Assembly (NCBI GenBank): GCA_905178155.1
Contig: CAJINV010000005.1
Location: 2,792,054-2,856,053, forward strand
Direction of reading: 5' to 3'
DNA length: 64,000 bases
From: Amoebophrya sp. A120
Lineage: Eukaryota; Protista; Dinoflagellata
The translations under genes were made by a program, and so were the position numbers. The first letter of the stretch is position 1; the number at the start of each line of letters is the position of its first letter. The notes beneath the pieces are model-generated. The model was given only the letters and a program-made list of their open reading frames with translations. It was not told where the DNA came from and ran no database searches. This document shows, piece by piece, positions 11,956 through 51,300 of the stretch.

Positions 11956-14717
11956 ATGATGTGTAGAAGTTTCCAGCGACGGGCCCTCCTGCTCTCCATC
12001 GGTGCCGCGCTCCTCACCATTTGTTCCAACCCGGCCTCGGCTCGTCTGGAGTTTACCGCGCTAGCACCATCCGAGGAGGAACATCATGCTTCGCACCGAG
12101 CCGCCCCCACACCCGGCACGAAGGAGAGTCTGCTCCAGCAACAGGAGGAGCTCCAGGAGCAGCAGGAGAAAGAAGCCGAGGTGGAGGAAATCGAGCAGCA
12201 GCACACCTATCTCACCTCCGAACAGATTTCTGCTGAAATAAGGAAAATCGTCGATCAAGATCCGGAAAAGCGATTTACCGTCGAACGACTTTCCGACGAA
12301 GCCTGGACGTCAACGAGCGAAAACCAAAACGTCGGCATTGACGTAGTCCATTTCCAACCGAACGCAGTAAACTCTTCTCCAAACGGTAAGAAAGCGTTTT
12401 TCCTGTTCGGGTTACACGCACGAGAATTGATTTCCTCGGAGACGGGGCTGCAGTTCCTGAAGTCGCTGCAGCAAAACGGGTCGCCGTTCGAGGTAAAGCT
12501 GATTATCGACGTCAACCCGCTCGGGAGGCGACAAGTGCTGAACAAGCAAGGGTGTCAACGCTACAACGAGAACGACATCGATTTAAACCGGAATTTCGAC
12601 TCGGGCTTCGGCCAATCGGACGACGATGTGAATCCGACAGGGAGCTCGGCGTTTTCCGAACCAGAAGCGAGGATTTTGAGAAAGGTGCTTTCTAAAATTT
12701 TTTTATTCATTGCCTGGCATGGTGACACAGAAATGCATGGCAGAAATGATTTCAATTTCTTGGTATACCTCTTTATTTGCGCATGTTGACAAGTTTGTGA
12801 AAAGCACTAGCATTTCAACATTCTCGTTCTTTGTCAGGTCCTGGAAACATTCGACTACGATATCTGGATCGACAGCCACACGGGCGAGTACAGCATGCTC
12901 CTCCCCCTGGCTTACACGCAGGACCTTCTGCCCGAGTACGATGCAAAGTTGCTTCCCTTAGGGCAGTACCTCAATCAGGTTGACCCGGATTTGCAACTCA
13001 ACTACGGCTCCATGCCACGACTGACGCGGACCACGGTGGGTGGCAGCTGCCTCGACTTCGCCACGGGGCTGATGCGGAAGCGGGGGAAGGTATTGAGATA
13101 TCTGGGTCGTAGTTTTTGTTTTAGCGAGATCAATGATCTTCACGAGATGGCTGTTCTTGCTGTTGCTGCATCATGACACATGACAGACACAAGAACTCCC
13201 TTTCCTTGTATTGAGCCTAAGCGTCGACAAGCAACATCATGACCATAAACAAACTCTTTAGGTTCCCTATGCCATGGCGTTCGAGATGTACGGTCGCTCT
13301 CCGTCGGACAAGAACTCGATCTACTACCAAATATCAAATGCAAATATGTCTGGGAATGGAAGGATCCAACTTGTCATGCTGTTTTTGGACTCTAAAAAAA
13401 TTTGTATTGCATGACCAGCAAGAGGGGTACAGTTTGTGCTACACGGGCAGGGCGTTTCTCATGCGGAAGGTGCATCAGGAAGCCCTCTAAAAGTCTGCGA
13501 AGATGCTAGGTCATGCATTACAGGCATCATGGGTCATCAGAAATATGCATGACAAATTTTGCATTCTTCCAGACCCAGACACATTTGCATTTGATACCAC
13601 ATCTTCAACGACAAAGACTACGTGGAGAGCCAGGGAAAAAACATCCACTTCTACGACAACCCAGGCAAAAACGCCTGGGTCCGAGCGGAAAGAAGCGGAG
13701 ATCAGGAATGCATGCACAACATGTATATAGTTTTAAGTTGTTGTTCTCTGGATATTCGTGCTCCATCTTTCTGCATTGCTTTGCATGCGCCGCATGGCAG
13801 GTAGTATTTCTTGTGCTACGTCAGCATGACAATGTTAGTGTCAATATCACCTTCCCGTAAATTGATTATCATTCCTCAGGTTTTCCCCTACCTACGAGCA
13901 GGATTGTGGCAAAGTGTGGTCGACGTTCGTGCCGGTTTACTACAACATCCTTGAAAAAATCTGTGCACAGGAAGGCTGGAGCTACAAAACAAATCAAGCT
14001 ACTACACCGGTGGCCCTGACCAAGGACCAGGAGGACGAAAATTACCGAAAACAGTTGAACGCCGAGTATGTGAAGAGCATGCGGGAAAAACGAACAAAAC
14101 GGCTTGGAGCTGCCTCGAAGGAGGGAGAACCGGCGTACAGTCCAAGCCTAGAGGAGGACGACGAGTTGTTGGACGGAGCAGAAGAGAAGGGCGAGGACCT
14201 GGTGTTGCAAGACAACAGAAACAGAGAAGAAGACGGCACTAGTACTTCTTCGAACGGGAACGCCGCGCCATTCTCTAATGGAGCTGCTGCCGGCGATTCT
14301 ACAAGTGGTGCCAGTGCGACCGTGCGAGCAGCCACCAGCTGGTCCGCGATGATGCGTGTGTACACGGCCGCCTTGTCCCTCTGCCTCCTGCTGCTCATCG
14401 TCGGGCACTTCCTCGGGTGGCTGCAGCCGTTCGCGAAAAAACTCGCCCGGGTGCGGAACTACTACCAGCAGCGGATGGACTTTTACAAAAAGAAGAACGG
14501 CTTCAGCAACTTCAATGACGAGAGCCACGCGATCGCCACCGGTCTGCAGGACTTGTCCACCGGCTACTGGTCGGACGAAGACCACAACCGGCACCACGGT
14601 GGGGATCAGCACGAGCGGAGCAGCTTGCTTGGCAGCGGCGGTGGGTTGTACAAAAAGTCCTTTTTGCAGTCTTCTACCCCGACGACGCAGTCCTTCCACT
14701 CCTCGCAGCATCTGTAG
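11956..14717 (+). CDS. M14 zinc carboxypeptidase with signal peptide and C-terminal transmembrane helix
   Basis: HARE, DLNRNF, FSEPE, IDSHT and AFEMYG motifs; GT-AG introns 12685-12837, 13090-13261 and 13723-13879; introner 13332-13596. Confidence 0.9.
13332..13596. mobile_element. Introner family A (orientation X)
   Basis: TIR similar to tatcaaatgcaaaaatgtctgggtctggaag; TSD ccaaa/ccaca; removal gives IYYHIFND. Confidence 0.9.
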
Positions 14718-17700
14718 CGAAAGATTTTTTCGTTTTCGAGGACGAGAAATCAAATGATTTTCGAGACGACAATTTTCTCTCTGTACTAACTTGTAATGGT
14801 GTATAATGTGGACGGAGGTGATCATGTAACTGTATGGATATCATGTGTACGAATGTGAATTTCAGCAGTTCCACGAACAGAAAAAGTTTCAGTTGATTTA
14901 CAATCGTATCTATGCTTCTAAGATCTTGTCCAACAAAAGTCGGAGCATTACTCAGGTAATGGGGGGGGAGGGGGGGATGCATCCATGCTTTTTGGGCATT
15001 ACTCAAACCGGCGACAACTTGCGCCGAGCCGTCCTATCGTCCTCGTCGCTCTCCTCCATCACCGGCCGCCGATCCGCCAGGCCACCCCGTCTCCGTGTCC
15101 CTCCATCAATCGCCGATCGTCTCCGCGGCCAGCCACGCGGCACGCGCGGCCGCGGGCCCGCCCGCCACCCAGCGAGCGCAGACCTGCGGCCATGTGGCCG
15201 GGAGGCAGCCACGATTGGCAATGTGTAATGCTAATGCAGAAACCAACGAAGGACAAACTGCTGACGTGGCTCTTTCAATTTTCCTCCATCGGAGGAACGT
15301 AAGCGTTGAGATGGCCACTCCAACTACTTACTTATTTTGACTCTCTGTTGTCCTAGTGGTCCTCGTCCTTCACTTCTGCGTTACAATTTTCCAAAGTTGG
15401 AAACTTGTGTTTCAGAAATGAGGGACAAGAAAAGAAGCACGAAGCTATTGCAGTGGCCATTTCAACTGTCTTCCATCTGAGGAAAGTTGACGTGGCCCCT
15501 GTTATGTTTTTTCCTGCATTCCTGCATTAGAAACGAGGGGCGAAGGAGACACGACCTGAGTAGAAGTTTTATTCAGGCCGCCGGACCTGAGCAACGTCGG
15601 CGAGAGAAGACAAACCGCCTTGGAAATTCAAAACTTTTCGGATTCCCAACCGGGCTTCTCTCCATGGACTGGGTCGAGAAGAATCTTTCCCGAGCAAGTC
15701 TTTCGAGAAAATCCCGCTCCGACAGTTTCTAATTGGGTTTTTCTCCACGGACAAAATACAATTTGACCCCAATAATAGCATATAGCGCCACGAGAATGAA
15801 ACGAGCGACCTACGAGAATGACGCAGCAAATGGGGCTCCACCCGCTTCCAACTTTTCCCGCTCCGGACGGGGTAGAGGTTGCGTTTTTTACAGGGCTTTT
15901 GCCCGTTTTTTCGCGCAGAGCTGCTTGCTTTACACACGGTTTTTCTCCACTCGAGCGGTCGGGTGGAGAAAAACTGCATTACAAATTCGCAAAACCGGAC
16001 GGATTTAGATGCGGTTTTTCTCCCCGCAGGAGAAAAGCCGCGTCACAAATTCGCAAACTTCGATGGGATCTTTCTCTCCCCGGGACCTCGGGTAGAGAAA
16101 GCCCGTATTACAAAAGACCCGAGCTCCGGTTCTCCGCGTTACAAATGCGGAAAGGTCGGGCGCTCCGCATTACAAATGCGGAAATTTACATGCGGCTTCC
16201 CAGAGCTCGGGACTGTGGGTAATGCGGAAAGCCCGGAGCTCGGGTTGTCCGCATTACAAATGCGGAAAACCCGGGCTCTCCACATTACAAATCCTCCTTT
16301 CGCCACAAGCGGCTGCCGCCGCACCGTCGTGCGTAACCTTTTGCGCGATGCTATCACCAACCTACAAAATTCCCATTCCCCCACACACGCATCGATAGCA
16401 TCCGGCATTAGGTTATGCTGCATGGTATCGCCGCGTGCGAATTTCCCTCGCAGCGATACCATGCAGCATTAGGCTACGCCCGAACTGTGGCTGTCTTTTT
16501 CTGCCCAGTTGGGCGCTGGGCAGCTTCTTTTCCCCCCCAAACACGAGCGCGCGGAACCCGGGAAAAGTTGTGGTTGTACAAAAAGTCCTTTTTGCAGTCG
16601 ACCCCAACGACACAGTCCTTCCACTCCTCGCAGCATCTGTAAAGAAAGATTTTTGGTTGACAAGGTGAAATCTCAACTACTCAAAAAAAGCTCAACGTTT
16701 AGAAAAAAAACATCAACTATTCAAAACAATATTTATTTATTTCTTTATCTCTCTCTCTCTCCCTCTCTCTGTCTCTCCTCCTCCTCTCTGGTATTCTCCT
16801 CTACTCCTCTCTTCCAGACGTTCCTTTCTCCCTCTCTCTGAACTCCCGCCGCGCACTGCTCGTCATCCCTCTGGCCCCCGCCGATTCCTGCTCTGCATGA
16901 TTGTTCCGTGTGTCGTTCTTCATTTATTTGTGTTGTTTCTTCTCCTGTTCTTGGCGTCGTTTATATTTCTCCGCTTCAGACAGTTCAAAAACAAAATCTA
17001 GATGTGCACACTAACTATGTTGAAAGGGGCCGGCTATCATGTTTCGCCAGAATATCGCAGCCACTATTTGGCGCGCCGTATTGACGGGCCAGATGTAATG
17101 TGACACGCGATGGATATCTCGGTGAAGACGCGTCGAATGAAAGCAGCGCGTAGCCCCAGGGGTGGCATGTTGGCTGAGCAGCTTCGTCCAGAACGGTCGA
17201 ACGCATTTGGAAAACCAAAAAGCGCGAAATCGCGTTGCTTTGTCCGACCGGAATTGTCAGACTTCAACGAAAATCAGCCAATTTTTCAGATTTTTGCGAA
17301 AAAATAGGGGGGGAACTCTCGCAAAATTTTGAAAATCAGCCCTATTTTTTGCGTTTTTACTTGGCGGAATCCGGCGAAACCACCGGCGAGCAACCACAAG
17401 CGCCTTGCCACGAGCAGCGGCGTCGAGGCATGTGCCGTTCCCTGCTAAGCTTTCGCCGGGCCGCCTCGAGGATGGAAATTCAGAAGCTGCTCCGCAGGCC
17501 GCAGGAATTTTTGTATGATATTCCCCAGATATCCGGCAAAATTTGCGTTGTCAGGCTTACAGAGCACGCTCCAGCAGTGCCAGAGAGGTGCCTTGTCGAC
17601 AAGGTCTTGCGACGGCATTGCGCACATCTCTCACCTTTCGCTTCGTCACTTCATGGAAAATCTCAAAGCATGGCAACTGGGGGGTGGTGACGTTTTCAAA

Positions 17701-18165
17701 CGGGATACGCAGCGCCACAAAAACACGCGAAACCGAACGGCAGCAAGGGGAGGGGGACACAGAACAACAACGGAAAAAAGGCATCGCAGCATAAGTGCCT
17801 GACGAACACAACGGAAAAAGTTCCTGACGACGACACAGAACAACAACGGAAAAAGTTCCTGACGACGAACTTTTTCCGCTGTGTTCTGTCGTACGAACAA
17901 CGGACGCAGTCCTTCCACTCCTCGCAGCATCTGTAAAGAAAGATTTTGGATTTAGTGTGGGGTGAATTTTTTCGACGAGGAATTGGATGATTTTCGAGAT
18001 GATAACTTTCATCTCGAAAACAACACTTGTAATTAATATCAAATCATGTGGACGATGATCACGATTCCCGTAGCTGTTACTGTATAAAGAAACCTGGACG
18101 ATAAAGTGCTTTTCAGTAGTTCCACGAACACCAGAAGATTTCAGTTTATTCACAATCGTATGCTT
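14644..18165 (+). repeat. Triplicated carboxypeptidase 3' end (14644-14935, 16572-16655, 17903-18165) separated by two repeat-rich insertions
   Basis: cagtccttccactcctcgcagcatctgta occurs three times; 3'UTR similarity between copies 1 and 3; inserts contain gcattacaaatgcggaaa and acagaacaacaacggaaaaag arrays. Confidence 0.8.
16415..16469. mobile_element. 55-bp mini hairpin element
   Basis: 17-bp perfect inverted repeat atgctgcatggtatcgc, flanked by taggtt/taggct. Confidence 0.55.
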
Positions 18166-20792: not shown

Positions 20793-21194
20793 AGTTTTTG
20801 GTTGTAGGGGCATAGGCTGCTGGTTTTAGTCCACGGTCATGTAAAAAAATTCCATCTATCACACGAAAACTTCACATACAGGCACTGCACCACGGCGGCG
20901 CAAGAATAAACGAAGCAGCAACAACCAAGCAGACGCAAACACGGTGAGGCACCTCGCGAATCAAAATTCATCGCAGGCTTGACACGGTTGCGAGTAGAAG
21001 CGACGGACCGACTGCGTCTGCGACGGCACGGCAGCGAGTGGCTAGCATGGCGGAACTGGCGATCACGCAACGTCGGAAAAAAGCATTTTGGCCTGCTGCT
21101 GCGTCTTCGTTGCTTGCCCCCGCAACACGACGAGCCTTCAGCGGTGCACGCTGGAGGCTCCTTGTGGCCGTGCTCTACTTTCCGGAATTTCGTC

Positions 21195-21217: not shown

Positions 21218-21968
21218 CAAGAGAAAGATGGCAGGCCAGAAACCACCGGCTGCAGGAGGAGGTGCGGTCTATTTCAGGTTGTAGCCCGTCGTGCCCCTGC
21301 AGCTGCGGGTAGTACAGCTGGGCCGCACGCGGATGATTTTCCACCTGGCGACACCGAGCACAGATTGACAACGCTTGCTTTCGTTTTCAAAGAAATAATG
21401 AACGACTTTCGCATACAACATGTACATGATGCTATGATCGCGACAGCCACAGTAGAAATCATATCCTCACTCGCCTCCGCATTTTGATTTTGGAAGCGCA
21501 ACTTCATCGAAGTGCTAGTATCGCTACAGAAGTTTTCCAAGTAGTGATAGACCTGCTCCCCTCCGCTTTGGAGGTCCTAGGGTTAATACTGGCTGTTCGA
21601 CTACATTGACGCACAAACACCTACACGCGGGACGGTATGGCAGGTCAAGTGACTCTTTGTCGACTGAATGGACGAACCTAGGCGGTCAACCTCTTTCCCC
21701 TTCGGTAAAGATGAAGATCTTGTCAAGGATGTGTAGGGTTCATGGAGATCAAAACAAAGAAGATGAAGATCTTCAACGACTCATTGTCGTTGCCACAGCC
21801 GCCACCTGCAGGAGTTGTGTTTATTTCTAGACTAGCAAGATGTCGAGGATCTGGTTCTTCTTCTCGCGTGTCAACCATAGCGCGGACACATGAAGCCCGA
21901 GGATGACCCTCCTGCACCTTTATGGCCAAGCTATTGCGCTCCTGCTGATACATAATCAACATACTAAG

Positions 21969-24900
21969 ATGAAAGTCCACACGGCCGCTTCAAGTTTTTT
22001 GCAGCTTTTGCTCTCCGTTTCTTTCACAATGAAGCTGCTTTTCGTCACGATGTTTTGCGTTTCCGTTTCGCCAGACTTCAATACTCACGTGGACTCCACG
22101 ACAAGGTCAGGTTCCCTGGTGTTTGTTTCCGGCGCATTTCTGCAGCAACCACCCTCACCCAAGCTAGCCAACACACCCAATCCCTGGGCGCTGATGCCAT
22201 CGGCAGGAGTGGCGCAGCACCATCACGGTAACCCAGCCTCATCGTCTGGCGCTCCTGCCCAGAATGAAAGAAACCCGCAGCACCACCTGAAACACGCCCA
22301 TCCCCAATCGACCAGCAGCGGGCACCAAGCTAAGTCCACGACCTCCTCTTCTCGCTCTTTACGAGGACATCAGCATCACCATTCCCACAAAAAGCAGGAG
22401 TCCAAGCGCGGTTTGACCGGTTGGCAGTTGAAATTTTGGAACTACAGTATGAACTGCAATAAATATGTCTGGGTCTGGAAGAATGCAAGGTTTGTCATGC
22501 ACATTTTGCATGACTCCTGATGTCTGTGATGCTTGCCCTAGCATCACAGATTTTGTGAGGGCTTCCTGATGCCTATATCGCATGAGAAATGCCCTCTCGC
22601 CCTGGCAAAAACTGAACCTCTTTTGCTGTTCATGCAATGCAGATTTTGGTAGAATTCAGACGCAGCATCACAAGTTTGAATCCTTCCAGGAGACCCAGAC
22701 ATATTTGCAATGCATATACAGGAATGGAGAGCAAAAAGTTCACACGGACGAGGTCCAGGATGCTGGACAGTTGTATCCTGTGCAAAAGTATCGTACTCGT
22801 ATTGCAGTCATGCATTACAAATCTTGTTCTTAAGCTAAATCCGCATGACAAATTCCATTTCACATGCTAAGGAAATTTGTAATGCGATTTATACTAGTAC
22901 GATACTTTTGCAGTTCATAAGTTGGAGTTGGAGACGATTCTCCAGTTTTTGGACAAGGGTGCGGAAGAGAAGGTGAAGAACTTTGCGCAGATGCGGGACC
23001 AGTTTCTGCGCATCACCCGGCACAGTCTCGTCCCGCTGGAGGACGATTATGTCTTGGGGAAGACGATAGAAACCGGGATGAACGGGGCCGTGCTGAAAGT
23101 GAAGCGAAAGCCGAAACCACCACTAGTACCCTGGCAGGAGGAGGAAAACAGAAGGGTCAAAGAGATCGATTTGATCAACGCGCGGGGGAAGCAGGCGGAG
23201 AAAGCTGGCGAGGATCAACTGCTGTCGTCCTCATCTCCAAGTCAGCTTGTGCAGCGGCGGCCGGCTGGCGCCGGAGCAGGCATTGCGTCTTCTTCTAGAA
23301 GCCCCGGTGGGGGCGTCGGTTTTTACACTAGTAGAGACCAGCAGTCCGCTCATCTAGACTGTTCGAATTACCGCAGCATCTCATGCGTTGCGAAAATATG
23401 CAGCAGGTTCAGTCGCGATGGAGTTCTTGCCGAATCTTCGAGCGAACAAGTTGGTGTTTCGGCGTCGTGCCAGCAACAGCAGCAGGAGCACGGCATTGGT
23501 CATGCGTATGCAACGCAGCAGCATAATAATAATTCCACCGAGGGTTACCGCCCCCTTGCGCAGTCGTCCCAGCAAAACAGCCCCTGCTCAGGACCCGGAA
23601 TTGCACCTAAAGAGGAGATATGGATTGCAAAAATGTCTGGGTCTGGAAGATTGCCAGATTTGTCATGCATGTTGTGCATTGGCCATGATGTCTGTGATGC
23701 ATGCCCTAGCATCACAGATTTTTTGAGGGTTTCGCGATGCCTATTCCGCATGACAAATGCCCTCTCCGCGTAGCAAAAATTGCATTCCCTTTGCTGCTCA
23801 TGCAATACAGATTTTTTTGGAATGCAAATTCAGCATCACAAGTTGCATTCTTCCAGACCCAGACATTTTTACATTTGATAGGAGATGGAGGAGCGGGAGT
23901 TGGAAGACCTTTCAAGCCTCTGCCACAGCCTCCTATGGCGTTCTCAAATGTTACATTCTCAACTGTTGCATGAATTTGTAATGCAAGAATAGCACAGGCC
24001 AGAGGGAAAACCCTGCGCGTCTTGCATTACAGATTTGGTGCGGATTCTAGTGCTATTTAGCCCTCCGAGAATTTGTCATGCGAAGCACCTTCGTCGTTTG
24101 GTGGCTCGTGGTCATTTTGCATGACAAATCATGTAACAGTTCAGAATGTAACGTTTGAGAACCCCATACCTCCAGGACATGTCATTTGTGGATGCTGGCG
24201 GTGCCAAAAACGACCATCAAACTCAAATGGCCAACGCCATCACCAGCGCGTCAAATTATACAAGGAATCAAACTCAAACACCTTGTGGAGGACAGCACGC
24301 GACCCTAGAATCTTCCTGCGCATCAAGCTCCACCTCGCCGTTGGCGCTACTCGGCGCCGGCCTGGGTGCCTCAACATGCAGCAAGATGAATCATTCCCCC
24401 GATAATTCAACCTCGAGTGCGGCCTCTACGATCTTGACCGGAAGCGCTTCGGGTAAAATCCAACATCCTGCTCCCATGCAGCCAAGCAACACAATAAACT
24501 CTGCTCCTCTTGTCGCGCGCCACGTGGGAAAGCATCGGAAGGTTTACGATCGGGAGAAATACCGGTCCGCCCCGGCGGATCCAGGACGAGAGGAGCTAGA
24601 TTTTGCGGAGGACGAGGTAGCGGAGGGCGAAAACGAGAATATAATTTCCTGCAGCGGTTCTCGTGAACAAGCAGCTGCGCTGCAGCAATCATATCCCTCG
24701 CAGCACATCGACATCATTGCGGGGAGTCTCGACGGCAGTGATAGTTTATTGATGGAAGAAGAAACCCAACATTCCTCTTTGTGTACTAGTTCATCTTCAT
24801 CTTCCGGCACAACTACAGGAGCAGCTGGTGGTCCTCCACATTGTGGTACTGTTAACACTCAAAACACTTCGCGTGCGGTTGACAGCACGTCGGAAGAGTC

Positions 24901-27900
24901 CGAGCAGGAATTCGCGATGAAGACTTTGAAATTGAAAATCAGCCGGAAACAGGAGCGAAAGTGGATGATGGAGCGGGACCCCAGGACGAACTGGCCGAAG
25001 CACCTATCCTACCGACAAACGGTGGTCCGAAGCTTTATGGCGTCCGCAAACGTTACATTCTCAACTGTTACAAACATGATTTGTCATGCAAAATGACCAT
25101 GAGCCGCAGGACAATCAAGCTGCTTCGCATGACAAATTATCGAAGGGCTAAACAGCATCTAAATCCGTGCCAGATTTGTGATGCAAGACTTGCAAGCCGT
25201 CCCCTTTCCCTATTGCTGTTTTTGCATGACAGATTCGTGTAACGACTGAAGAATGTAATGGCTGAGAACGCCATAAGCTTGTGGGCGGAGTTGCTGAGTA
25301 ACTTGAAGGTCGCGGTGCACATATGAATTGCAAATATGTCTGGGTCTGGAAGGATGCGAACTTGTCATGCGGATTCTGGAACAAGCAAAAATCTGTATTG
25401 CGTAGTCAGCAAAAGGTACGCGATTTTTGTCTCCAGAAGAGGGCATTTGTCATGCGGAATAGGTATGGAGAAGCCTCCACAGAGTTTGTCATGCTCTGTG
25501 TGCATTTCAGACCTTTTTGTAGATGTAGAAAATGCATGACAAATGTCTGATTTCCTCCAAACCCAGACATTTTTTGATTTGATAGCACATGTCGGAGTGC
25601 GATCGAGAATTCGAAGAGGAGGAAAGATTGCAGAGACAAGCGGAGGCGGTGAAACGAGAACAGCTGTTAGGGGCGTCGACGGGAAGCAGTTCTTCTTGCG
25701 CGTCCGCGTCAGGCGGTGGAGGTGGCGCGGCTTGCGTCAACACTCCTGCTGGTAGCTCTCATCCAAGCAGCTCCGGAGGACAGCTAGGTTTGTTGAGCGG
25801 GACCACCAGCAGCACCGCCCTACTAGGCAGTACAACTTCGAGCACTTCTACTGGAACAGCGGGCGCGTCGACATCCAGTACTTCGTTTCTAAAAATCCCG
25901 AAGGTTGGCTCCGCCGCTTCTCTTTCCACCATGGCGAGCTACTGGAACCACGGGTCCTCGTCGCGCGACCAGCTGAGCGGAGCCGCAGGCGATCTCGAGC
26001 AGGATTTTCCCTCCCCTGCGTCCACCATCGGCGGAACGTCCCCGTTCGGAGGACCACCACCTCCGGGTGGAAGCAGTGGCTATCGAAGATACGGTTCCCC
26101 CGATCGGCACTCCGCGTCACCAACCGGGACGACCGACGAGCAGGCTTTGGACGAGGTGGAGGAGGAAGCCGCTGAAATGGGGGCTGGTGCTAGTACTGCA
26201 GCAGGAGCTGCCCGACGGGCGTTCCAACTAGTACACGCGGCAAGAGGATCGGCGTCGTCTTCTCCGAAAAAGAATTATGCTGCAGGAGGCGTAGGTCTAG
26301 ACAAAGACAAACCTCCGCGACCTCCAACTGCTTCGGGAATGACGCATCTTCAAAGTCACCAGCAACTGTCGTCCTCCCAAGCTGAACTGCAGCAAGCGGC
26401 CACCAAAACAACGACCACCGGCGCAGGTATTGAAATGAGCCCGACCACAGTAACCGACGGGCGAGACGCAGACCCCAGCATTGCTAGCATTATTGCCCAA
26501 CCACCCTCAGCCTTGTTAACACCAGAAGACACAAAGACAAACGCACGAAATAATAAAAGTCTCCGAAATATGAAACGAAGAACCACGCTCCGCGGGCGCA
26601 TTCCGGACCTCGTGGATATCCGCGTGACGAACGACCGCGTGCACTTGATCTTCACGCTGTGCAAAGGTGGCGAGGCCGTGAAGACCCCCATCCCGGAGAT
26701 CGCCAGCGACGTCTGTGCCGCGAAATTTGCGAAACACTTCCTGGAAACGCTGGAGGTGTTGCACGACGAATTGGACATTATGCACCGGGACGTCAAGCCG
26801 GAAAACATCCTTTTCACCGAAAAAGACCGGAAACCCGACACGGCACAGCTGATCGATTTTGGGCTCGCGTGCCCCATCGCGAAGGGGCTGGGCTGCAAGG
26901 GTGCGGCGGGCACGATAGACTACGTCTCGCCGCAGCAGTTGTGGAACATTCCCGGGTTTGCAGAGTTCAGGCGGATTTTGGAAGACAGTACAACTTCTAC
27001 ATGCATTTTTGTTTCAAATTGTATCCTCGTATGTGCAGGTACTAGCATGAGCATGACGAGACTCTGCCTGCCTAGTCCTCCTGTGCTCTGCAACTACGCA
27101 GCTTGTGGCTTTTCTCATTCCATAGTACTACTTAACACATACAACAGAGCCACCAGTTCAATCTCTCGACGACGATCCAGCTTTGCACCCGGACCTCCTT
27201 CCCGAGGACACCACCAACAGCAAAACCACCCAACAAGACGCCACACACCAGCTCGAGGAGCAGCGGCACTGGCACTATAGCGAGAAATATCACGAGAAAA
27301 AAGTGTTAGAGTTAAGTACACATTTGTTGGAGTCTCTGCATCACAAATTTTCTCTGTGTGGCAAAACAGTAAGGAAACGAGGCTCCGAAGCATTTCCTGC
27401 ATGGGAAAGGTTGTCTCTGTTGCCAGTCTTGCATCACAATGTGTAACTGTAGCAATTTTTTCCTGTGATAAGAAAGGGGATCTCTTCGCGCTCGGCGCGG
27501 TTTTGCACCTCCTGCTCGAAGGCCGGTCCGCCTGGGACCGCACCTCCCGAATGCCGGCCCGCGCGGGAAGCACTTACGACCCGGCGGACAGGCTGCGCGA
27601 AAACTGCAAGAAGATTCAAACCTTCAAGGCGGACCGCCGACAGTACCACGAGATGGCCAGTTGCTTCGCGTGGACGAAGCGCTTGAGAAAAGCGCTGTCG
27701 AGCTTCCCGCTGGCGGGGGGGTGTGCGGGCGAGAAAACTGGTGCTGGTGGTGGAGGAGGCGGCGCAGCCGGGCGGGGGCTGCTGTCCGGATTGTCTTCTT
27801 CTTCCGCACGTGGTCCTCGCGGTGGATCATGTGGAATGAACATCATGAATAAACCTGGAAGTAGTAGAACCTCCGTCGATATCAAATGCAAAAATGTCTG

Positions 27901-30900
27901 GGTCTGGAAGATTGCTAGGTTTGTCATGCAGTTCTTCCATGACCCACGCGGTCTGGCATGCACGGCCTAGCATGCCAGGTTCTGTGAGATCTCTATCATG
28001 CCTTTCCTGCATGAGAAACTGCCTCTACTAACTTGTTAAAAAGTGGACCTCTTTTGGTAATCATGCAACACAAATTTTTCCACGATCCAGCTCGCTGCAG
28101 CATGACAAGTTACACTCTTCCAGACCCAGACATTTTTGCATTTGATAGTCGAAGATTGCGGGGAGTCGACGAGCACCTCTGTACAAATCGCGGAAGATGA
28201 AGCAGCGTGCTCTTTATCCAGGAAAAAACACCCCTCCACATCCAATTTGTCATGCATAACATACATAAAGTTCTGTGTTTGTCATGCAAAAAATGGATGT
28301 GGATGGGTTTTTTTTCTGTGGATACTCTTCCCTCCTCTCCTACTCAGCTTCGGCCACGGATGCGGCAAGTCGGGGTGGACAGCGCGCAGCTGGCGACGCA
28401 GCATCAAGAGCGAGAGCAGCAGCTGCTTCCTGTGCCGGAGCAGTGCCCTTGCCTCACCCACCAACCTGCCAGCTGTTTGGAGGTGCTGGGGTAGAAATGC
28501 AGCACGGAAGTACAACCAACGCATCCTCTCCCTGCAACGACTGCCACACTGAGGAAGTGATCGGGAACCTGCACAATACTGAGTATAATCATGCACCCTC
28601 TACGCACGGAACCATGCCAGTCCTGGATGAAAGGGACATTTCGTCCGTTTTCGAGATCACAAAGAAACAGCAGGAAAAGGAAGACGAAAAGCAAGTGATC
28701 GTGGAAGAACTTCTTCTGCATGAGAAGCAGCCCAGCCGGGCCACCGCCGAGAGCGACGGTAGTTTTTTCACACCCTGCACGTCTCCACAACACTTTGCGA
28801 AATTTATCGAGCAAAAATCTGTTATCGTTATCGAATTTGAAATTGCTGGCAAAGGCCAAATTTTTTTAAGTTTAGCTAGAGTGGGGTAGCAATGAAATCC
28901 TTATCCGCCCCCGCGGCGGATAAGCCGGGGGGGGGGCCCCCCCCGCCTTATCCGCCGGCGGGCGGTACCGGTATAGCCGCGACAAAGTGGCCGGGCGCCA
29001 CCATCGCCTGGAGGACCCGGACATGCCGAGAGCATCCGGCGTGTTGTGGGTAGATTTTGAAACACCACAAAGATCCATCGACGGCATGGCGCCGCCGGTC
29101 TTTGTGGTGTTTGTTTCTTTGAAAGTGGCAGGCGCAGCCCCTGAAGACTCCGCACTGCCGGGAGTACTTTGGACTCAAAAAAACTCGCCAACAGATATTT
29201 GCCACGCAAAAGGCGAAAAAGCTTGGGAAATTCGCCACGCAAGCAACGGCCCAACAAATAATAGCAAGCAACGGGCACACAGGGCCAGGGCCAGAACAAA
29301 CCTGCCCCACAGAATTAAACTCCTACCGTGTGCAGCGCGAGGGCCGCCGAGCTTCCTCGCTTATTTCCTTCGGGCTATGTACTTACTCGCCAGGCCATGC
29401 CGCCCTGCTCTTGGGCCGGCGCCCATGCCTGCAGGTAGCGACTTAGGGCCCGAAGCGAGAAGCGCAGCTGGCTAAAGGTTTTATCTTGCGCGCGCCCGCC
29501 TTCGGAGGAAGTGTGTCTGTGCAGACCCAAGCCGGCCGCCCGCTAGTATGGATTCCACCGCCTGCCTTTGCAATGGGCCCACGCACCCAAACAAGCCGCA
29601 ACAGCGCCTAAGGCTGCGCACCCAGAGTCCGCCTCCTTTAAATGTTGGGCGCCATCGGCGGTAAAATTCCCCCCGGTGGCGTGCTTGACTTATATTCCAC
29701 GGCGACAGGGCGAAGGCCTAGGCCGGGCAGCCATTAACTTCCTGGGCCCCGGGCCGGGCCGTGTCTGTTGGTGACATCTTTGCCGCAGCGCGAATAGTTA
29801 GCTTGCTTCCGCCGCGGCCATGTTTAAGGACTTGGGCCGCGTGGGCGGCAGCCTCGCGCGCTCTACTTTTGTTCGCCTGCTTTTTTCCTTGCCGCCGCCA
29901 GCCAATCAATGCGCCCTATCTTTCCGGCGTGGCACAAACGCCCGCCCGAAGTGATATGCGAAACAGGTCTCGGGGCCCAGTGCGTGCGGTTTTCTCGGTT
30001 CCCACTGCAGGCCCTCCCACTTCCCATCTCCCTCGGGCCCCAGTGGGGTTTCCCAACTGCACAGGCCCCGGGGCGGGCCCAGTGCGGCGGGCTGTGGCTC
30101 TGGGCAAGCCGCAGCCCGATTGCTACCCTACCAGCTACCGTCGCCGCGCTGGCTCACACACTCTCGACACCCCGGCCGCCACGCCACGCGGCACGCATTG
30201 CGCCAAGGCGCCGGGGCAGCAGCGCCGGGGCCCTGCGTGGGGCTGCGGGCTTGGTTGCTTGGGATTCCTTGCGTGGCGTGCTTTCGGCGCGAATTGGTAG
30301 CCGCTGGGGCCTGTGGGCAGCTTACAAACCCGGCGAGGTGCTTGCGCCTGCGACCAGACCCCGGCGGGCCTGTACGCGTGAAGCCTGGCGCCCTTGTTTG
30401 CGGGGCACGCTGCCGGGCTCGGTCTGTGTGTCTGCATCTATTGTTTGCAAGCAACGTGATGAAGCCCAGCCGGGCTCCTGTTGACAAACCTCCCAGACAG
30501 GCCCCGACATGCAAGGCCCGGGCTTCTATTGACAACCCCCCCCGCCAGCGAATTAAAATCCAGCGGGCGCATGCTAAACGAAAGCAAGAGGAAAATTGAA
30601 GTATTGGGGACGACAGGAACGCTGCTGCTATGCCGTTTTTCGGACTTTTCTATGCCTTTTGTCAGGGAAATTCAGTAAAAAAGAAAAACGCTTTTTATTT
30701 TCTTTGTGTGAATTCCCAAACCCAAAGCCACGGCTTTCCGCCTCGTTTTGCTCGCATGACAAAAACTGGCATGCCGTGTTTCTTTCCAATCCCGACGGTG
30801 CGACGTTTGGCAGCTTCCTGCGTATTACTTAAACCATAACCATAAGCACCAGCGGCGTGCTGTGTGTCGGCCCGGGGTCCCTCGGGCTCACCCAAAGGGC

Positions 30901-44088: not shown

Positions 44089-44150
44089 GCAAGAGTGATG
44101 TCATACCGCAAAGAAATCCTCCTCGTGCTTCCCATCGTGTGCTCGCTTAT

Positions 44151-45341
44151 TTAGAGCTTTAACGCCCGTTAGCATGAGAAGTTGCGAATTTGTAGCGAAT
44201 TTTGCATGACAAATTGCAGGTGGGTCCGCCGGTACATTGTCCCTCTTGCCCTTCTGGGAAGTGGGTTCTGCACACCGCAGAAGTCAAGGCTTATGCGGCG
44301 GGCAGCTTCTAGACATGGCCTGGGTGCCGTTCTATGGCCATGCCCATTCGTCTCCCTGTGCTCGCATAAGAGCACTGCAGCAGCCGCGGCAAAGACGCCA
44401 AAAAGAAAGGCTGCGAAGCGCATGCAATTAGGCAGGAAGGCGCAAAAAAAAGGGTGAAAGGACCAGGCCGAGAGCTTTGACGCGTCTATCCGGCAGGCGC
44501 GTGAACTTTCCAGGCCTCTTCGGCAGAATATAGAGGCGCTGAGGGCAACAGAGGGCGCTTGTCTTTTCCCCTGCTCGGCCCCACTTCCCAGGGCCTATGT
44601 GCGGACATTCTTAAGCACTTTGCTGCGCTGAAGTTTGCTTATCACGGTGGAAAAGGGGAGCCCGGTGAATTTTGGGGTGAATTTTGAAAAAAGTGCCGGC
44701 GAATTTTGGCCTACGGCACTTGTTCAAAATTCGCTGGCGCATGAGAAACTCCGGGTTTTGGAGCTTCAAAAAATTTTCGCAAAAAGAAGAAGCCTCAAAA
44801 TTCACCAAGAAAATTCCTGACCTGGAGGTCTCGCCAAAGAAGACTAGAGGACCCGACCAAGATGAGGCAGGAACACAGCTGGGAAGAAGTTACAGAGCAA
44901 AGCAGGCGAAGCTAGCATCCATTGCAACGCGTCTCCAGCTATCCAAGCCGAGACAGCAACAACCCGTGACGCGACTTCTCTATTTTGAGATATTGAGCTA
45001 CTGCCCCTGCCCCCCTTTCCAGGCATGGCCCTCCCTATCGATCTGCCACCATCGCGTCTGCGGATCAACATGCAGCATCGTGCTGTAAAACCGGCGCCAC
45101 AAGCCACCTGTGTTGCCTCGCAGTCGCTAGGTGCGCCCCGGTGGGCAACAGGCGGCAAGCGTCCACAGGAGGGCAGCGTCACCAGCCAGGCGGCCCATCA
45201 ACACGGCGCGCTGGCTGCTTGTTTTCCTCGTGTTCTTCGCATGATGCACGTGATAGATTAGTTCATGATGCATTGCCACGCAATACAAATTCACTGCAAA
45301 ATCACCCTTCTGTATGCTAACGCCCGTCCAAGGCATAAGGT
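44151..45341 (-). mobile_element. Inverted, diverged second copy of the 1.2-kb element (arm 2)
   Basis: Reverse-complement similarity to 42888-44088 along its length; followed by a third repeat copy at 45342-45409. Confidence 0.8.
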
Positions 45342-45356
45342 GGGGACGCAAGAGTG

Positions 45357-48300
45357 ATGTCATACCGCAGAGAAATCCTCCTCGTGCTTCCCATCGTGTG
45401 CTCGCTTATCACTTCAGAATTTCTCGTCCCCGCACAAGTTCACCTCTCGTCCCCGTCAGAAGCCGGGATATTAAAAACCCCAACCCCGCCCAACGAGACC
45501 CTCCTCCTCCGCCCTTCCGGCACCCCGAAGCAGCGGCCGGTGCAATGTTTTGCGCATTCGGAGTTGACGTACCGTATCAAATGCAAAAATGTCTGGGTCT
45601 GGAAGGTTGGAACTTGTGATGCTAACTTTGGATATATAAAAAAATCTGTATTGCATGACCAGCAGGAGGAGTCCTGTTTGTGCTACGCGGGGAGGGCATT
45701 TGTCATGCGGGATGGGCATCAGGAAGGCCTCTAAAAATATGTGATGCTAGATCATGCATTACAGACATCCCGAGTCATGCAAAATATGCATGACAAACCT
45801 GGTAACCTTCCAGACCCAGACATTTTTACATTTGATATACCAACGGTGCTGTCAACAGCGGCAGGAGCACTGCGTCTCCACGCTGTCCGACCCTGCGTTT
45901 TTCTACAAGGCCTGCTGCGAAGACCGGTACCTATCAAATGTAAAAATGTCTGGGTCTGGAAGATTTTGAGGTTTGTCATGCATATTTTGGAAGACTCATG
46001 ATGTCTGTGATGCATGCGCTAGCATGACAGATTTTTGGAGGCCTTTGTGATGCCTCTACCGCATGAGAAATGCCCTCCCCGGGTAGCACAAACTGGAGTT
46101 CTGTTGCCGGTCATGCCATGCAAATTTTTTTAGAGTCCAGAGACAGCATCACAAGTTTAGAATCTTCCAGACCCAGACACTTTTGCATTTGATAGTACCT
46201 CGCGGTCAACGACGTTCCCGCGCACCTGGGAAATCTCGTCATATCCTGTGCAAAAGTGTCGTACTCGTATAAATGCAAGTCTTGCATTACAAATCTTTAT
46301 CGTAAGGGAAATCCGCATTACAAATTTTCTCTCTTATGCTGAGAAAATTTGTAATGCATTTATACGAGTACGATACTTTTGCAGTTCACACGTCACCGCG
46401 CTGGTCGATATGGCATACATCGCGAAGCAAACAGACAGGATACTGTTGGCGCCAGTGGACAAAAAACTCTTTGGCCCGGTGTTCAGCGATTTACGAGACT
46501 GGTATAATCGCAACGGGGGCGCGCCGGATCTTCATGCTGGTAGTTCGCATTCTGTCGGCAGCGACAAGGGTAAAAATAATATCAACGTCGAAAGGCTGAT
46601 AGATGACGGTCTCTCCGAAAGCGATCCTGCAGCGCTGTGGCAGTTTCTGCGAAAAGCTAAAACATCATTGCAAAAGGGAACTGCAGCAACCGAGCACGGA
46701 GCAAACCAAGAGCAGGAGCGTCAGGAGGCCCTTTATTGGGCGAAGCGACTGTATAGGAAGCGATTTCGAGAGCGGGCTGATGTGAACCCCTTGGTGAGCC
46801 TGGTCGGTCAGAGACCAAAAACTAGCGAACAGGCGCATCATAATAATCATCCTGCCGGTGCAAACAGGACGGCAGAAGGCAGACTTGAGGCAGCACAAGC
46901 AGCACGCTCGTCGACCAGCGGCCGTGGTCCTCGAGGAACCTACAGAGAAGCGGCACCCCTTCATTATCAAGCTCTCAAGGATCTCCCCGTGACCGCAAGC
47001 AATCTGAGAAAGCTCGCCCTCGCCTACGAGCAGAAAACCCAGAGGTTCCGTGCGGTGATTGGCCGGTCTTTTTTCAAGCTCGGCTGCCCGCAACTCCCCG
47101 TGGTCGACATCGCGGGCGGGGGTCGGGAGGGTCCGTTTCGCTTCGCCTTAGATCAACAGGGCGCCGAAACCAGTCCGGCGAAGCTGATTTTGATTTATCA
47201 GGGTTTGTACCACGATCACTCGCTGGACACGATCATGCAGCTGCACGGTAAAAAACAAATTCTCGCGGACAAAAAGACCAAAACCATGCTGGAGAATTTT
47301 CCGACGAAAATCTCCAGCAAGAGAAGTAGAGGCTCTACTACTTCAAAGAGGACTACTGGAGATCATGTTGAAGTAGACGTCGACCCGGATGAAGATGATT
47401 TTAATTCCTCAGACGAAGACACGGAAACGCAAAAGATTTCCTTCTCCGGCCACTTTCCGGATAACTACCCCGTGGGCGGAAGGGAGGAGATATCCACTGC
47501 AAAAGTATCTCACGACTGGCATCGGTTGCATACATACTGTATGAACCAGTTGCAATACAGCAATACAAATTTCATTTTTCCTAAATGTAAATCTGCAACC
47601 ACCACGCAAACCATAGCTAGTACAACGGCACTTTTGCAATGCATAGGAGACCATTGCACGCATGGAGAAGAAGATGGAGGAGGAGCAGAAGCTCGCGGAG
47701 AAGGATACTGAATACGACAGGACGATGAAGTCGCGGATTGACGAGATGGAGCTCCACTACATGCTCTTACGGGACCGGTGGGTCGCGAGATTTCCGCAAG
47801 TCGTCAGATTAACCGGCGAGGACGCAATTACTTTCTGGGATGAGATGGAGAAACCGATCCGATATCCTCGCGGAAATGACCAGAGCGGCGGCAATGAAAA
47901 CGTGCAATTCCTGAAAAGAGCGATACTACGGAAGTACGAAGCGCTGTATACTTCGCAAATAAATGCTTCATCAGCAGAGGCAAGACAAAAGTTCTATCAC
48001 CTACTCTTCCACTCCAACCCCCCTGTTTCTCAGCTGAGAAATCTCTACCGCTTTCTGTACCACGACGACGCCGCGCCGTCGAGATTGTTACCTCCTGGGT
48101 TGGTCAAACCATTTCTGGTTTCCGAGTGCGGGAGTCCGGATTACGGAGAGAGTGGAAACTCGGTCGCTTTACTGAAATACGCGGAACGGCAGAACGAGTT
48201 TCTTTTTGGACATCAAGCAAATTTTCTGCAAACCGCTGCAGAAGAAGACGCGAGCAGAAATCACATGAAACGAGTGCGACACCGCGAACACGGAGCAAGT

Positions 48301-51300
48301 AAAAGCCGGCTTCTCGATCGGCTCAACAAGCAGCGCGTGAACCACCTGCACGCGCACCATCGCCCCTGTTTGGTCGACCGGTTCCTGCAGAGCAGCTACA
48401 TGAAGGACCACAAGTGCGCGATGCTGCACCAAGTCTTTCATTTTGTCGACTGGACCGTGGAAGACGCGGACTTCAAAAGAATTTTCCTCGCCAGTCTGTG
48501 GATCCATGTCGTGGAGGAGAACGCGATCAGGCCGTATATTGGATTGATACAGCCGGCGGACCGTGAAGATGTTCTTCCCCGAAGAACAGACGCAAATGTG
48601 GTCCAACCGAATGATCGAAGTTCCTCTTCTCTCCGGCTAACCGAGCTTCTCCATTTCCTCGCCACGAACCGCATCATCGCGGTGCATTTCCGCGGGGCTT
48701 GGGGCTACCAGGGCGTGGGGCTGCAGATCCTGGAATTGGTGAAAAAAACCGGAATTCAACTCGTCTACATAGCGACCGACAACATCCGCTTCGAGCCGTT
48801 TCGGGAACTGGTCACGACGTTGCGAGACGAGTTTCAACTTACCGTGCTTTCCTCAGAACTCTCGGAAGCGATTGCGGCTGGAATCGGAAAGGAAATCAGC
48901 GGGGTAGCAGATCATGCCACCACTGCTGCTCAAGGCCAGACTGAAGATGACAGCCGCTCCTTCGGCGAAAAATTGCCGACGTTTCAAAGTGCTTGCACTG
49001 GCACTGGCGTGTTGAGTTGTATCGTCGAAGCAGGAAGTGCTTCTCCAACATCGTCACTACCGGCCGAAGCTGTGGTGGAACCGACTGCTAGCACCCCTGA
49101 ACGAAAAGAACCTTTATCAGAAGAAGACGCGGAAGCCGCTGCGTTTCTTCGGGGTGATGAAGAAGCAGAAACTACTGGCAGCACTGCCGCCCATAATATA
49201 ATCCCCACCCCAGACGAGCCCGTTTTTAACAGCGCAATCCCATGGCACAAGCACCACTTGGAATCTCACCGGGGCAAACTGCCTAATCTGGCGCTGCACA
49301 TCGACTTGTGCATCTGCACCCTGGCAAGCAGTTTCCTGGGACAGCCGTTATCCAGCCTGTCCGAGCTGATCATGAATTTCAGGACCGTCGTGCGGCAAAT
49401 GCACGGACGAGGTGATGATATTGAAGATGCCGGAAAAACCACCACTTCTAGTACCGGCAAAAGTGCCAGCAGCGAAGTAGATGCAACAGAAACTACAGTC
49501 TTGTCGTCGCAGAAATGGAAAAGATTTATTCTGAAGAGGCACTACAGAAGTAGTCACAAGGGAAAAAGTGAGACCAAGAACCGCGGTAAGGACGTAAGCC
49601 CAACCTGGCAGACTTCCACACACCCGGTGCTGGCGTTTTACAGAAAAGTGTTTCAGCAGGTGCAGCAGTCGCCATCGTCTTCCACCCTGCCGCGCGGGGC
49701 TGCACCAAATCCGACCGCATCTTCGTCCTCACCCGCTTCCTCGTATGCAGTATCTACTAGCCCCCGCCGGACGGATATCGCAAGAAAAAAGTGTTACAGT
49801 TACACATTGTCATGCAAGACTGGCAACAGAGACAACCTTTCTCATGCAGGAAATGCTTCGGAGCTTCGTTTTCTTCCTGCTTTCCCTTGTGATCTTCGCA
49901 TTACAAGTTTTCTCTACCACCCAGAGAAAATTTGTGATGCAGAAACTCCAGCAAGTGTGTAACTGTAACACTTTTTTCCGTGGATAACGGAAGCCTTTCT
50001 GCACCTACCGCGCGATGTCCTTCCTGTGGATCAGATTTTCCCCATCAGCTTCTACAGCGCCGATGAAATCGTCAAAGCAGATTGGATGCAGAACTTGATT
50101 GACGCGTTTCACATTTTGCAGAAGCAAGAAGCACAGAAGTCGACGGACAGCACGACAGACGCACGAGGACAAGGAAGTGAAAACAAGAAAAGCCCAGAAC
50201 AGAAGATCAGCAGCCTTGTTGCGAGTTCCGGCGCATCGAGTGCTACAACTACTTCGCTATCGCTTTCGACCTACTACATTCCCGCCGTGTTCACGGACCC
50301 GCTACCGCAACCGCAAGCCCCCGGGGGACACAACTACAGTCACCTTCTGTACAGCAAATTTGTGATGCGATTGACCCAGTACTACCTCGCCTACAACGAA
50401 GAGACAAACGAGTACGAGCGCGCGGAAAATTCCAGATACGAGGACTTACTCCGTCCCTTACACAAGAACCCGAAAAATCATGACGACCTCCAGCACGACT
50501 TTGACCTAACAAAAGACTGGACGCAGGCCACGGTGTTCGCCGCCACCTTCTACCACGACTTGGGACGGAGAAAGTGCCACTCCATGGGGCTGTTGCTCCG
50601 CTTACGGTTTGTGGTGTTGTTTGTGTTGTTTGGAAACTACAACAAATTTGAATGCGTCCGGGAGTTGAGCATTTTCGGCTACTTGTTGTACACAGAGATT
50701 TTCAACCAGGGGCTCGGCGTGTGGCGGTTTCTGCGAAATTTTGTCCGGTTGCCGGAGGAAGAACCGGCAGGAAATGCTGTTGAAGATGGAACTGCAGCAA
50801 AGGAGGAATTATTATTTCCAGAAACCACAACAGCAAACATCTCTTCCAAATCCCGGCAGCAAGAGTGGATTTCGCTTCTCAACCTCCTCCGCTTATTCCT
50901 GCAAAGAACCAAATGCCGCGGGCAGTACTTGCAAACGTTTTCCGACAAAGTCACCGAAGACGATGACTACCTGCACGCGTTTTACCGCCCGGAGGCCCCG
51001 TTCTTCCAGAAAACACCGATCCGGCAAAAAGCGCTGCTAAACAAATTTGTGAAAGAAGAGGGGGAGACACTGTACATTGCGCCAAGTGTCGAGTTGGTTC
51101 TGCCGAAGAAGTGCAGAAGTAGGGCCGCGCAAGAGGATTTCGTTGTTGGTGGCAGCAGCAGAAATGTTGAAGCAGGTCTGAGTCATCAAGAAGACGAAGA
51201 AATCGCGCAAAGAACTCTGGAAGAAGATTCGAAAGCGAAGCAGACCGTGCTTTCCTACTTCGCCGGGCCGGATAAGTTTGAACTCTCTTTCCTGTTTCCC

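What the first reader, a model, noticed from the sequence alone, without database searches (positions are those of the whole stretch)
13332..49986. The same introner families occur in both orientations within same-strand genes
Seen: family A occurs three times in one orientation (13332, 25322, 45575) and four times in the other (22448, 23619, 27880, 45932); families C and D each have one copy per orientation. Inference: removal cannot depend on a strand-specific branch point or polypyrimidine tract. It must rely on symmetric features (TIR stem, terminal TAT/ATA, direct repeat), which suggests structure-guided splicing or DNA-level excision.
Basis: partly seen in the sequence, partly recalled or inferred. 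Interest (0 to 1): 0.75.

Follow-up and report, generated by a model that had tools for sequence, protein, structure and literature searches.

The report
Transposon introns spliced either way round
Short transposon-like inserts sit in this organism's genes facing either way and are missing from probable RNA assemblies in both directions without normal GT-AG borders; they match the already published introner elements of the marine parasite Amoebophrya, and are likely cut out at fixed distances from signals that their mirror-image ends supply either way round.

Summary
Observation confirmed. Family A lies 3 times one way and 4 times the other in + strand genes; families C and D have one copy each way. 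The inserts are 110-331 nt TAT...ATA elements with 5-nt target duplications.

In probable RNA contigs (one sample), 9 of 10 covered elements show a listed joint removing exactly element + 5 nt, including both orientations of A and C. A likely DNA run reads through unbroken, so removal is at RNA level. In a second assembly family A lies 20:21 relative to the predicted coding strand.

The 150-nt core cannot carry a required strand-specific signal, and GT-AG is unavailable (0 of 17). But about 50 nt at each end read alike both ways, so they can still carry splice signals. The direct repeat looks dispensable, and G-U pairs show no selection for RNA pairing.

Best reading (0.55): a relaxed spliceosome cuts one base before TAT and four after ATA.

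The class is published (Farhat 2021). I found no paper on orientation for it. This scan noted the same on other pieces of this genome, and the -1/+4 lead came from those notes.

The parts
13332..13596 (+). Family A element, forward (reference orientation), in an M14 carboxypeptidase gene; 5-nt duplication with a mismatch at position 4
   Evidence: joint 13330>13601 skips 270 = element+5 and keeps the upstream copy
22448..22716 (-). Family A element, reverse, kinase gene
   Evidence: joint not listed (1 row hidden) but implied: contig pieces end at 22442 and the next joint's short side is 52 nt = 22717-22768
22774..22919 (+). Family B element, kinase gene
   Evidence: joint 22768>22920, element+5
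23619..23880 (-). Family A element, reverse, kinase gene
   Evidence: joint 23612>23880, element+5
23934..24168 (+). Family C element, kinase gene
   Evidence: joint 23928>24169, element+5
25036..25275 (-). Family C element, opposite orientation, kinase gene
   Evidence: joint 25029>25275, element+5; orientation
25322..25584 (+). Family A element, forward, kinase gene
   Evidence: joint 25316>25585, element+5
27288..27470 (+). Family D element, kinase gene
   Evidence: joint 27282>27471, element+5
27880..28147 (-). Family A element, reverse, kinase gene
   Evidence: joint 27874>28148, element+5
28215..28324 (+). Short TAT...ATA element (family E), kinase gene
   Evidence: joint 28209>28325, element+5
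45575..45837 (+). Family A element, forward; duplication mismatched at position 5
   Evidence: frame restored in silico; no RNA laid
45932..46194 (-). Family A element, reverse, same gene as 45575
   Evidence: no RNA laid
46242..46390 (+). Family B element (ends ACA)
   Evidence: no RNA laid
47491..47645 (+). Family B-like element
   Evidence: no RNA laid
49776..49986 (-). Family D element, opposite orientation to 27288
   Evidence: no RNA laid
3426..3599 (+). TAT...ATA element outside the finding's range
   Evidence: frame restored in silico; no RNA laid
10552..10882 (+). TAT...ATA element in an acyltransferase gene, outside the finding's range
   Evidence: no RNA laid
21894..33465 (+). Protein kinase gene holding nine short elements (A in both orientations, C in both), one GT-AG intron and one 3.6-kb insert
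   Evidence: 1935-codon frame after removing all 11 interruptions; Pkinase hits
28803..32385 (+). 3583-nt TIR insert with a ~40-nt flanking duplication, skipped with 1 nt of junction homology; 27 nt of the duplication stay in frame
   Evidence: joint 28802>32386 in 4 of 4 runs
14918..18042 (+). 3125-nt non-canonical skip downstream of the carboxypeptidase stop codon, with no junction homology and no end-to-end inverted repeat; starts N-TAA and ends ATA+4 nt
   Evidence: joint 14917>18043 in 2 of 4 runs

Best explanation
These TAT...ATA inserts with 5-nt duplications lie in coding exons in either orientation and are missing from probable RNA contigs as exactly element + 5 nt; they are likely non-autonomous DNA transposons, and are likely spliced by a relaxed U2-type spliceosome that would read short signals in the inverted-repeat ends. 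Shown here: both orientations, the removed length, the lack of GT-AG, and the intact DNA. Narrowed here: the intron starts at -1 or 0 relative to TAT. Inferred: the cut is at -1/+4, so the intron begins N-UAU (the local canonical donor GUAU without its G) and ends four free bases after a U run and AUA. Because the TIR puts the same ~50 nt at each end either way round, orientation does not matter, and one duplication's worth of sequence leaves with the intron, restoring the frame. The TIR stem may help bring the ends together but would not be the main determinant. The enzyme is not identified.
For: 9 of 10 short elements in the laid stretch have a listed joint, each element+5; two forward and two reverse A copies are among them. 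Retaining any of the nine kinase elements, or leaving its duplication doubled, breaks the 1935-codon frame. Only intron starts -1 and 0 fit all nine joints. The 3125-nt skip has zero junction homology, falls exactly at N-TAA and ATA+4 (local chance about 0.0007, a post-hoc test), and has no end-to-end inverted repeat, so ends seem to be recognised separately. Canonical donors here begin GTA in 7 of 8 and GTAT in 4 of 8 (4 RNA-supported, 4 predicted). All nine predominant non-canonical borders listed for A120 start N-T (Farhat Table S4; depends on the aligner). TIR positions 1-3 and 11-13 are fixed in sequence across families (partly imposed by my finder), while positions 4-7 are Watson-Crick paired in only 52-99 of 129 and do not covary. 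G-U 69 versus A-C 103 in the first 20 positions. U2AF, U2, U4, U5 and U6 are reported for A120, and U1 snRNA was not found. Precedent: the U2 spliceosome removes non-canonical introns in Fritillaria.
Against: No lariat, branch point or spliceosome dependence was observed. A YTRAY motif in the last 45 nt is not enriched on the sense strand (53 of 129 sense, 66 antisense). The ends are predicted to pair in register (mean probability 0.69 for TAT/ATA, 0.88 for the A/U runs; z -4.6 and -8.8 for two copies). TIR positions 11-20 covary beyond within-family shuffles (1183 versus 1131, 0 of 1000). The 3583-nt insert fits N-TAT at its 5' end but not ATA+4 at its 3' end. Flanks show only slight bias toward canonical bases. 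Terminal conservation is equally explained by transposase binding. The -1/+4 choice rests on one mismatch case plus one long skip, all from one RNA sample.
Confidence: 0.55

Rival explanations
1. Structure-guided, non-spliceosomal RNA splicing as proposed for euglenid nonconventional introns: a protein nuclease and ligase would dock on the TIR stem and cut at fixed, unequal distances from it.
For: Both orientations fold equally well (-0.403 versus -0.398 kcal/mol per nt). The A/U runs pair in register with probability above 0.5 in 118 of 129 elements, and positions 11-20 covary. Euglena introns use paired motifs with fixed spacers of 3 and 5 nt. U1 snRNA was not found in Amoebophrya.
Against: No G-U excess on the coding strand (69 versus 103; 109 versus 133 over 30 nt; no mutation-bias control was run). 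The sense strand is more stable in only 66 of 129. There is no covariation next to the cut. The 3125-nt skip has no end-to-end stem. Covariation at 11-20 can come from subfamilies and transposase needs.
Confidence: 0.33
2. The elements are excised from DNA, as with ciliate internal eliminated sequences (comparison recalled, not from a call), before transcription.
For: The product equals the empty pre-insertion site, and TIR plus duplication is transposon anatomy.
Against: Likely-DNA contigs cross all 11 listed exon-element junctions by 26 nt or more (6 of 11 by 31 or more) at depth 24-27, with no break at the duplication. The skips share contigs with GT-AG intron removal. The 3583-nt skip leaves 27 nt of its duplication. 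Caveats: contigs drop rare variants, 449 joint rows were hidden, and the life stage is unknown.
Confidence: 0.04
3. The joints are reverse-transcriptase template switches across a hairpin flanked by direct repeats.
For: Hairpin plus short direct repeat is the usual setting for this artefact (own knowledge), and all RNA data are cDNA-type contigs from one sample.
Against: Retention would break the kinase frame at each element. Family A copies have stops in all three frames in 37 of 40 cases. Two long skips have 0 and 1 nt of homology, and the 40-nt duplication is not used as the junction.
Confidence: 0.04
4. Each strand offers its own canonical splice sites, as in Micromonas and Aureococcus introners.
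For: Insertion in both orientations with co-opted sites is reported for those introners (review passage). AT-AC is possible in 10 of 129 versus 3.9 expected (p=0.009, one of five uncorrected tests).
Against: GT/GC-AG is possible in 0 of 17 window elements and 10 of 129 overall versus 8.1 by chance. 119 of 129 cannot be AT-AC, and the minor spliceosome is reported absent.
Confidence: 0.03

Closest known systems
Introner elements among the non-canonical introns of Amoebophrya sp. A120 (Farhat et al. 2021, PMC7789003)
   Same: Inverted repeat starting TAT + 7 nt + AAA, 3-5 nt direct repeats at the borders (5 bp in Fig. S19), ~240-nt length, many copies, non-GT-AG borders, co-oriented genes, genome GC 51.2% versus 52.5% here.
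   Different: The paper's main text and supplement text do not analyse element orientation, call the splice position variable relative to the hairpin, and limited its intron analysis to 40-1000 nt. Figures were not visible to me.
Micromonas pusilla and Aureococcus anophagefferens introners (Huff et al. 2016; seen only through PMC10228655 and PMC7789003)
   Same: TIR DNA transposons that become introns, have target duplications and insert in both orientations.
   Different: Those carry or co-opt canonical splice sites; these cannot form GT/GC-AG beyond chance.
Euglenid nonconventional introns (PMC12501133, PMC11282704)
   Same: MITE-like paired ends, non-canonical borders, direct repeats, cuts at fixed unequal spacers from a terminal motif.
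   Different: The motif there is CAG/CTG with 3 and 5-6 nt spacers and pairing supported by experiment; here it is TAT/ATA with inferred 1 and 4 nt spacers and no sign of wobble selection.
Fritillaria borealis non-canonical U2 introns (PMC13326754, PMC11282704)
   Same: Transposon-derived, mostly non-GT-AG introns in a genome that lacks the minor spliceosome.
   Different: Those have preferred borders (AG-AC, AG-AT), an intact U1 and shown U2 dependence; here borders follow the random target, and U1 snRNA was not found in Amoebophrya.

Membership tests
Amoebophrya A120 introner elements | Terminal inverted repeat joining the intron ends | tested here: met
   11-20 of the first 20 positions match between arms in all 17 window elements; median arm alignment ~50 nt in family A
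Amoebophrya A120 introner elements | Repeat starts TAT, 7 variable nt, then at least three A | tested here: met
Amoebophrya A120 introner elements | 3-5 nt direct repeat at the exon/intron borders | tested here: met
   5-nt repeat, perfect in 14 of 17 and 4/5 in 3
Amoebophrya A120 introner elements | Repeated, and removed from RNA at non-GT-AG borders | tested here: met
   99-130 long hits per family A query in loci L001-L135; 9 of 10 joints listed; 0 of 17 GT/GC-AG
Amoebophrya A120 introner elements | The organism is Amoebophrya A120 | tested here: inconclusive
   No genome held. Inferred from the motif, GC content and gene co-orientation. Unreviewed scan notes name A120.
Micromonas/Aureococcus-type spliceosomal introners | TIR + target duplication, insertion in both orientations | tested here: met
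   (20:21)
Micromonas/Aureococcus-type spliceosomal introners | Canonical splice sites carried or co-opted | tested here: not met
Euglenid nonconventional introns | CAG/CTG motif with 3 and 5-6 nt spacers | tested here: not met
   End profiles are TAT-N7-AAA
Euglenid nonconventional introns | Purine at the start of the next exon | tested here: inconclusive
   Under -1/+4, 84 of 129 versus 73 expected, p=0.06
Euglenid nonconventional introns | Pairing needed for splicing; introns released as full circles | not testable with these tools
   Needs mutants and intron-RNA sequencing; indirect tests were mixed
Fritillaria-type non-canonical U2 introns | Dependence on the U2 spliceosome, lariat formation | not testable with these tools
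   No raw RNA reads of this strain (run X9 gave 5 reads)
DNA-eliminated elements (ciliate IES-like; features recalled) | Empty sites in the DNA of the transcribing nucleus | tested here: not met
   Likely-DNA contigs run through exon-element junctions at full depth; rare variants and other life stages not visible

The most novel reading that the evidence does not exclude
Amoebophrya A120 has a splicing system that ignores both terminal dinucleotides and the target sequence, and removes any TAT...ATA transposon in either orientation by a fixed -1/+4 ruler, reading each end on its own. Transposon insertion in exons would then be nearly free, and unpaired transposon ends could create kilobase-long hybrid introns. 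The catalyst would be either a U1-free spliceosome or an undescribed RNA nuclease-ligase.
Probability: 0.5. Interest if true: 0.7.

Novelty: already known. Interest (0 to 1): 0.42.

Why it matters
The element class is published, but how these introns are removed in a genome where U1 snRNA was not found is an open question. Orientation-blind removal confines every required signal to the ~50-nt inverted repeat. The constant element+5 length, and skips with no direct repeat or no end-to-end stem, turn that question into a small set of testable rules (cut register, need for pairing, lariat versus circle). It would also explain how tens of thousands of copies could invade exons without an orientation filter.

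Tried and rejected
No whole genome is held, so no genome-wide count was possible; loci L001-L135 from a second assembly (the scan covered 26 of 64 parts of the collection) served instead. No listed holder is on record as RNA. X3-X6 are treated as RNA because GT-AG introns are removed in them, the long inserts and intergenic stretches have little or no depth, and one contig ends in A's. In the first lay, the DNA run filled the joint table with joints that likely come from other loci. Contigs cannot measure splicing efficiency by orientation. Position of duplication mismatches was uninformative (8, 4, 1, 6, 7 by position; folded p=0.70). Branch-point and pyrimidine scores did not separate sense from antisense, and the four RNA-supported canonical introns also lack a strong pyrimidine tract (0.5-0.6). 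The strand caller is weak on low-complexity genes: leave-gene-out gave the right sign in 7 of 9 window chunks, and in all 5 that scored 10 or more. Huff et al. 2016 is not held. A family A end motif was not found in 12 of 14 supplement files of PMC12130899. Ten of 27 candidates were dropped as weak or internal matches.
Full report
Observation. The seven family A copies are at the stated starts and fall 3:4 by orientation; families C and D have one copy each way. A scan for paired ends with 5-nt flanking repeats gave 27 candidates, of which I kept 17 elements of 110-331 nt. All 17 start TAT, 16 end ATA and one ACA, and the 5-nt duplication is perfect in 14 and 4/5 in 3. The host genes (an M14 carboxypeptidase, a protein kinase, and a gene with a weak O-fucosyltransferase hit) are on the + strand. 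A 3:4 split is the chance expectation.

Are both orientations removed? Contigs of four probable RNA runs (X3-X6, one sample) were laid on 13200-33100. Of 10 short elements there, 9 have a listed joint. The tenth (22448) is implied by piece boundaries, and one row was hidden. Each joint skips exactly the element plus 5 nt. Forward A copies (13332, 25322), reverse A copies (23619, 27880) and both C copies are among them. In X3 the joints at 23619, both C copies, 25322, a GT-AG intron and 27288 each come from one contig at the same depth (14.5), which fits a single 2839-nt record. Removing all 11 interruptions from the kinase gene gives a 1935-codon frame; retaining any short element or leaving its duplication doubled breaks it. 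Copies at 45575, 45932 and 49776 were checked only by frame (1861 codons).

Wider sample. A pattern scan returned 135 loci from one other assembly, carrying the same families at 66-95% identity and no long unique match to the window. Of 315 unique candidates, 239 had a duplication of 4/5 or better, and 113 of those lay in loci with a confident predicted coding strand. Family A lay 20 forward and 21 reverse, family B 5 and 8. Without any strand call, 9 of 13 loci with two or more A copies hold both orientations. The strand caller is imperfect, and wrong calls would push counts toward 50:50, so the strand-free count and the RNA joints carry more weight.

Canonical signals. No cut within the duplication gives GT/GC-AG in any of the 17 window elements. 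In 129 oriented elements (112 from the loci, 17 from the window) it is possible in 10, against 8.1 for random exon 5-mers. AT-AC is possible in 10 against 3.9 (p=0.009, uncorrected). Target composition is close to coding background.

The family A core is not palindromic, but the consensus first and last 45-50 nt are nearly the same in both orientations. Orientation-blindness therefore excludes signals in the core only. A donor-like start and a U run near the 3' end are supplied either way. Both-orientation insertion is already reported for Micromonas and Aureococcus introners (review passage).

DNA or RNA level. Run X1 has even depth over introns and intergenic DNA and is likely DNA. Its listed contigs cross 11 of 11 exon-element junctions by 26 nt or more (6 by 31 or more) at depth 24-27 without breaking at the duplication. 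This argues against DNA excision, though rare forms and other life stages are invisible.

Is the direct repeat needed? Probably not. A 3583-nt TIR insert in the kinase gene is skipped with 1 nt of homology, ignores its ~40-nt duplication and leaves 27 nt of it in frame. A 3125-nt stretch behind the carboxypeptidase stop is skipped with no homology in 2 of 4 runs. Twelve strong-TIR elements lack the adjacent 5-nt repeat. In the 7 with a confident strand, element+5 gave the best frame in 6 (p=0.007 against one third; control 77 of 90); of the other 5, one favoured +5, three did not and one gave no call. There is no RNA for those loci.

Is the stem selected? The evidence is mixed. The ends are predicted to pair, and arm positions 11-20 covary beyond within-family shuffles in 138 elements not chosen by the query pattern (1183 versus 1131), which subfamily structure could also cause. 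Positions 1-10 do not (1039 versus 1032). G-U pairs are fewer than their mirror A-C on the coding strand (69 versus 103, p=0.012; 109 versus 133 over 30 nt), and the sense strand folds no better than the antisense (66 of 129). No mutation-bias control was run. The 3125-nt skip has no end-to-end inverted repeat.

Cut register. The mismatch in the 13332 duplication shows the upstream copy is kept through position 4, and only intron starts -1 and 0 fit all nine joints. Earlier scan notes proposed -1/+4 and a donor mimic; I took those leads and tested them. The homology-free 3125-nt skip starts N-TAA and ends ATA+4 (post-hoc chance about 0.0007). Canonical donors here start GTA in 7 of 8. Farhat's nine predominant A120 borders all start N-T (depends on the aligner). 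The 3583-nt insert fits at the 5' end only.

Mechanism. RNA-level, precise, orientation-blind removal is well supported (about 0.9). For the catalyst I favour a relaxed U2-type spliceosome reading TIR-borne motifs (0.55) over a stem-guided non-spliceosomal enzyme (0.33). DNA excision, template switching and per-strand canonical sites are unlikely.

Comparison and novelty. The elements meet every tested defining feature of Amoebophrya A120 introner elements; the organism itself is inferred. Eight paper searches and term searches in Farhat's text and supplement found no analysis of element orientation or a fixed cut for this system. The library lacks most subscription journals. Eight earlier notes of this scan on other pieces of the same genome concern the same elements, and most report the either-orientation reading (unreviewed, not independent).

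Papers seen. PMC7789003: abstract, passages, sections 5, 10, 11, 12, 16, 32, supplement part 2 and passages, no figures (Figs 3 and S19-S25 may bear on the cut position). PMC12130899: passages and a search of 12 of 14 supplement files. PMC9860276 and PMC10228655: passages. PMC11282704: passages and section 6. PMC13326754: abstract, introduction, part 1 of discussion. PMC12501133: abstract, passages, section 8. Huff 2016, Henriet 2019 and Roy 2023: not read, known only through the above.

Verdict. A real feature of a known system, with an unpublished-looking but expected property and a testable cutting rule. Interest 0.42.

Noticed in passing
window 28803-32385: 3.6-kb TIR insert with a ~40-nt flanking duplication, skipped in 4 of 4 probable RNA runs; the mRNA keeps 27 duplicated nt, giving a 9-residue tandem repeat in the kinase.
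   Followed up: partly
window 14918-18042: 3.1-kb non-canonical skip after the carboxypeptidase stop codon with no junction homology and no end-to-end inverted repeat; the region holds 86-nt and ~260-nt direct repeats (14644/16572, 14684/17903).
   Followed up: partly
window 1962-3248; 35697-45341: Further long inserts in coding regions flanked by 39-nt and ~65-nt direct repeats, the second with ~450-nt inverted arms and a third repeat copy at 44089-44150; possibly a class of long-duplication elements. No RNA laid.
   Followed up: no
window 28965-36154 and 36156-43345: 7190-nt tandem duplication across a single N with 1 mismatch, likely an assembly artefact; it repeats the kinase gene's 3' end.
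   Followed up: partly
L036 1829-2108; L002 2123-2341: Elements with an 8-nt duplication, or a 5-nt duplication displaced by 3 nt; a fixed element+5 cut would leave 3 extra nt, in frame.
   Followed up: partly
window 903-1021 and 55324-55455: Stretches with an element-like ATA end or TIR but no clean 5-nt duplication; the first interrupts a + strand gene, the second lies just upstream of a minus-strand ORF.
   Followed up: no
window 54238-63785: Gene direction switches to the minus strand, with long ORFs nearly free of these elements and with little or no Pfam match (3 tested, one weak hit).
   Followed up: no
window kinase gene and loci such as L010, L054: Exons between neighbouring elements are often only about 35-90 nt, and family B is about 146-150 nt long; spacing was not analysed.
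   Followed up: no
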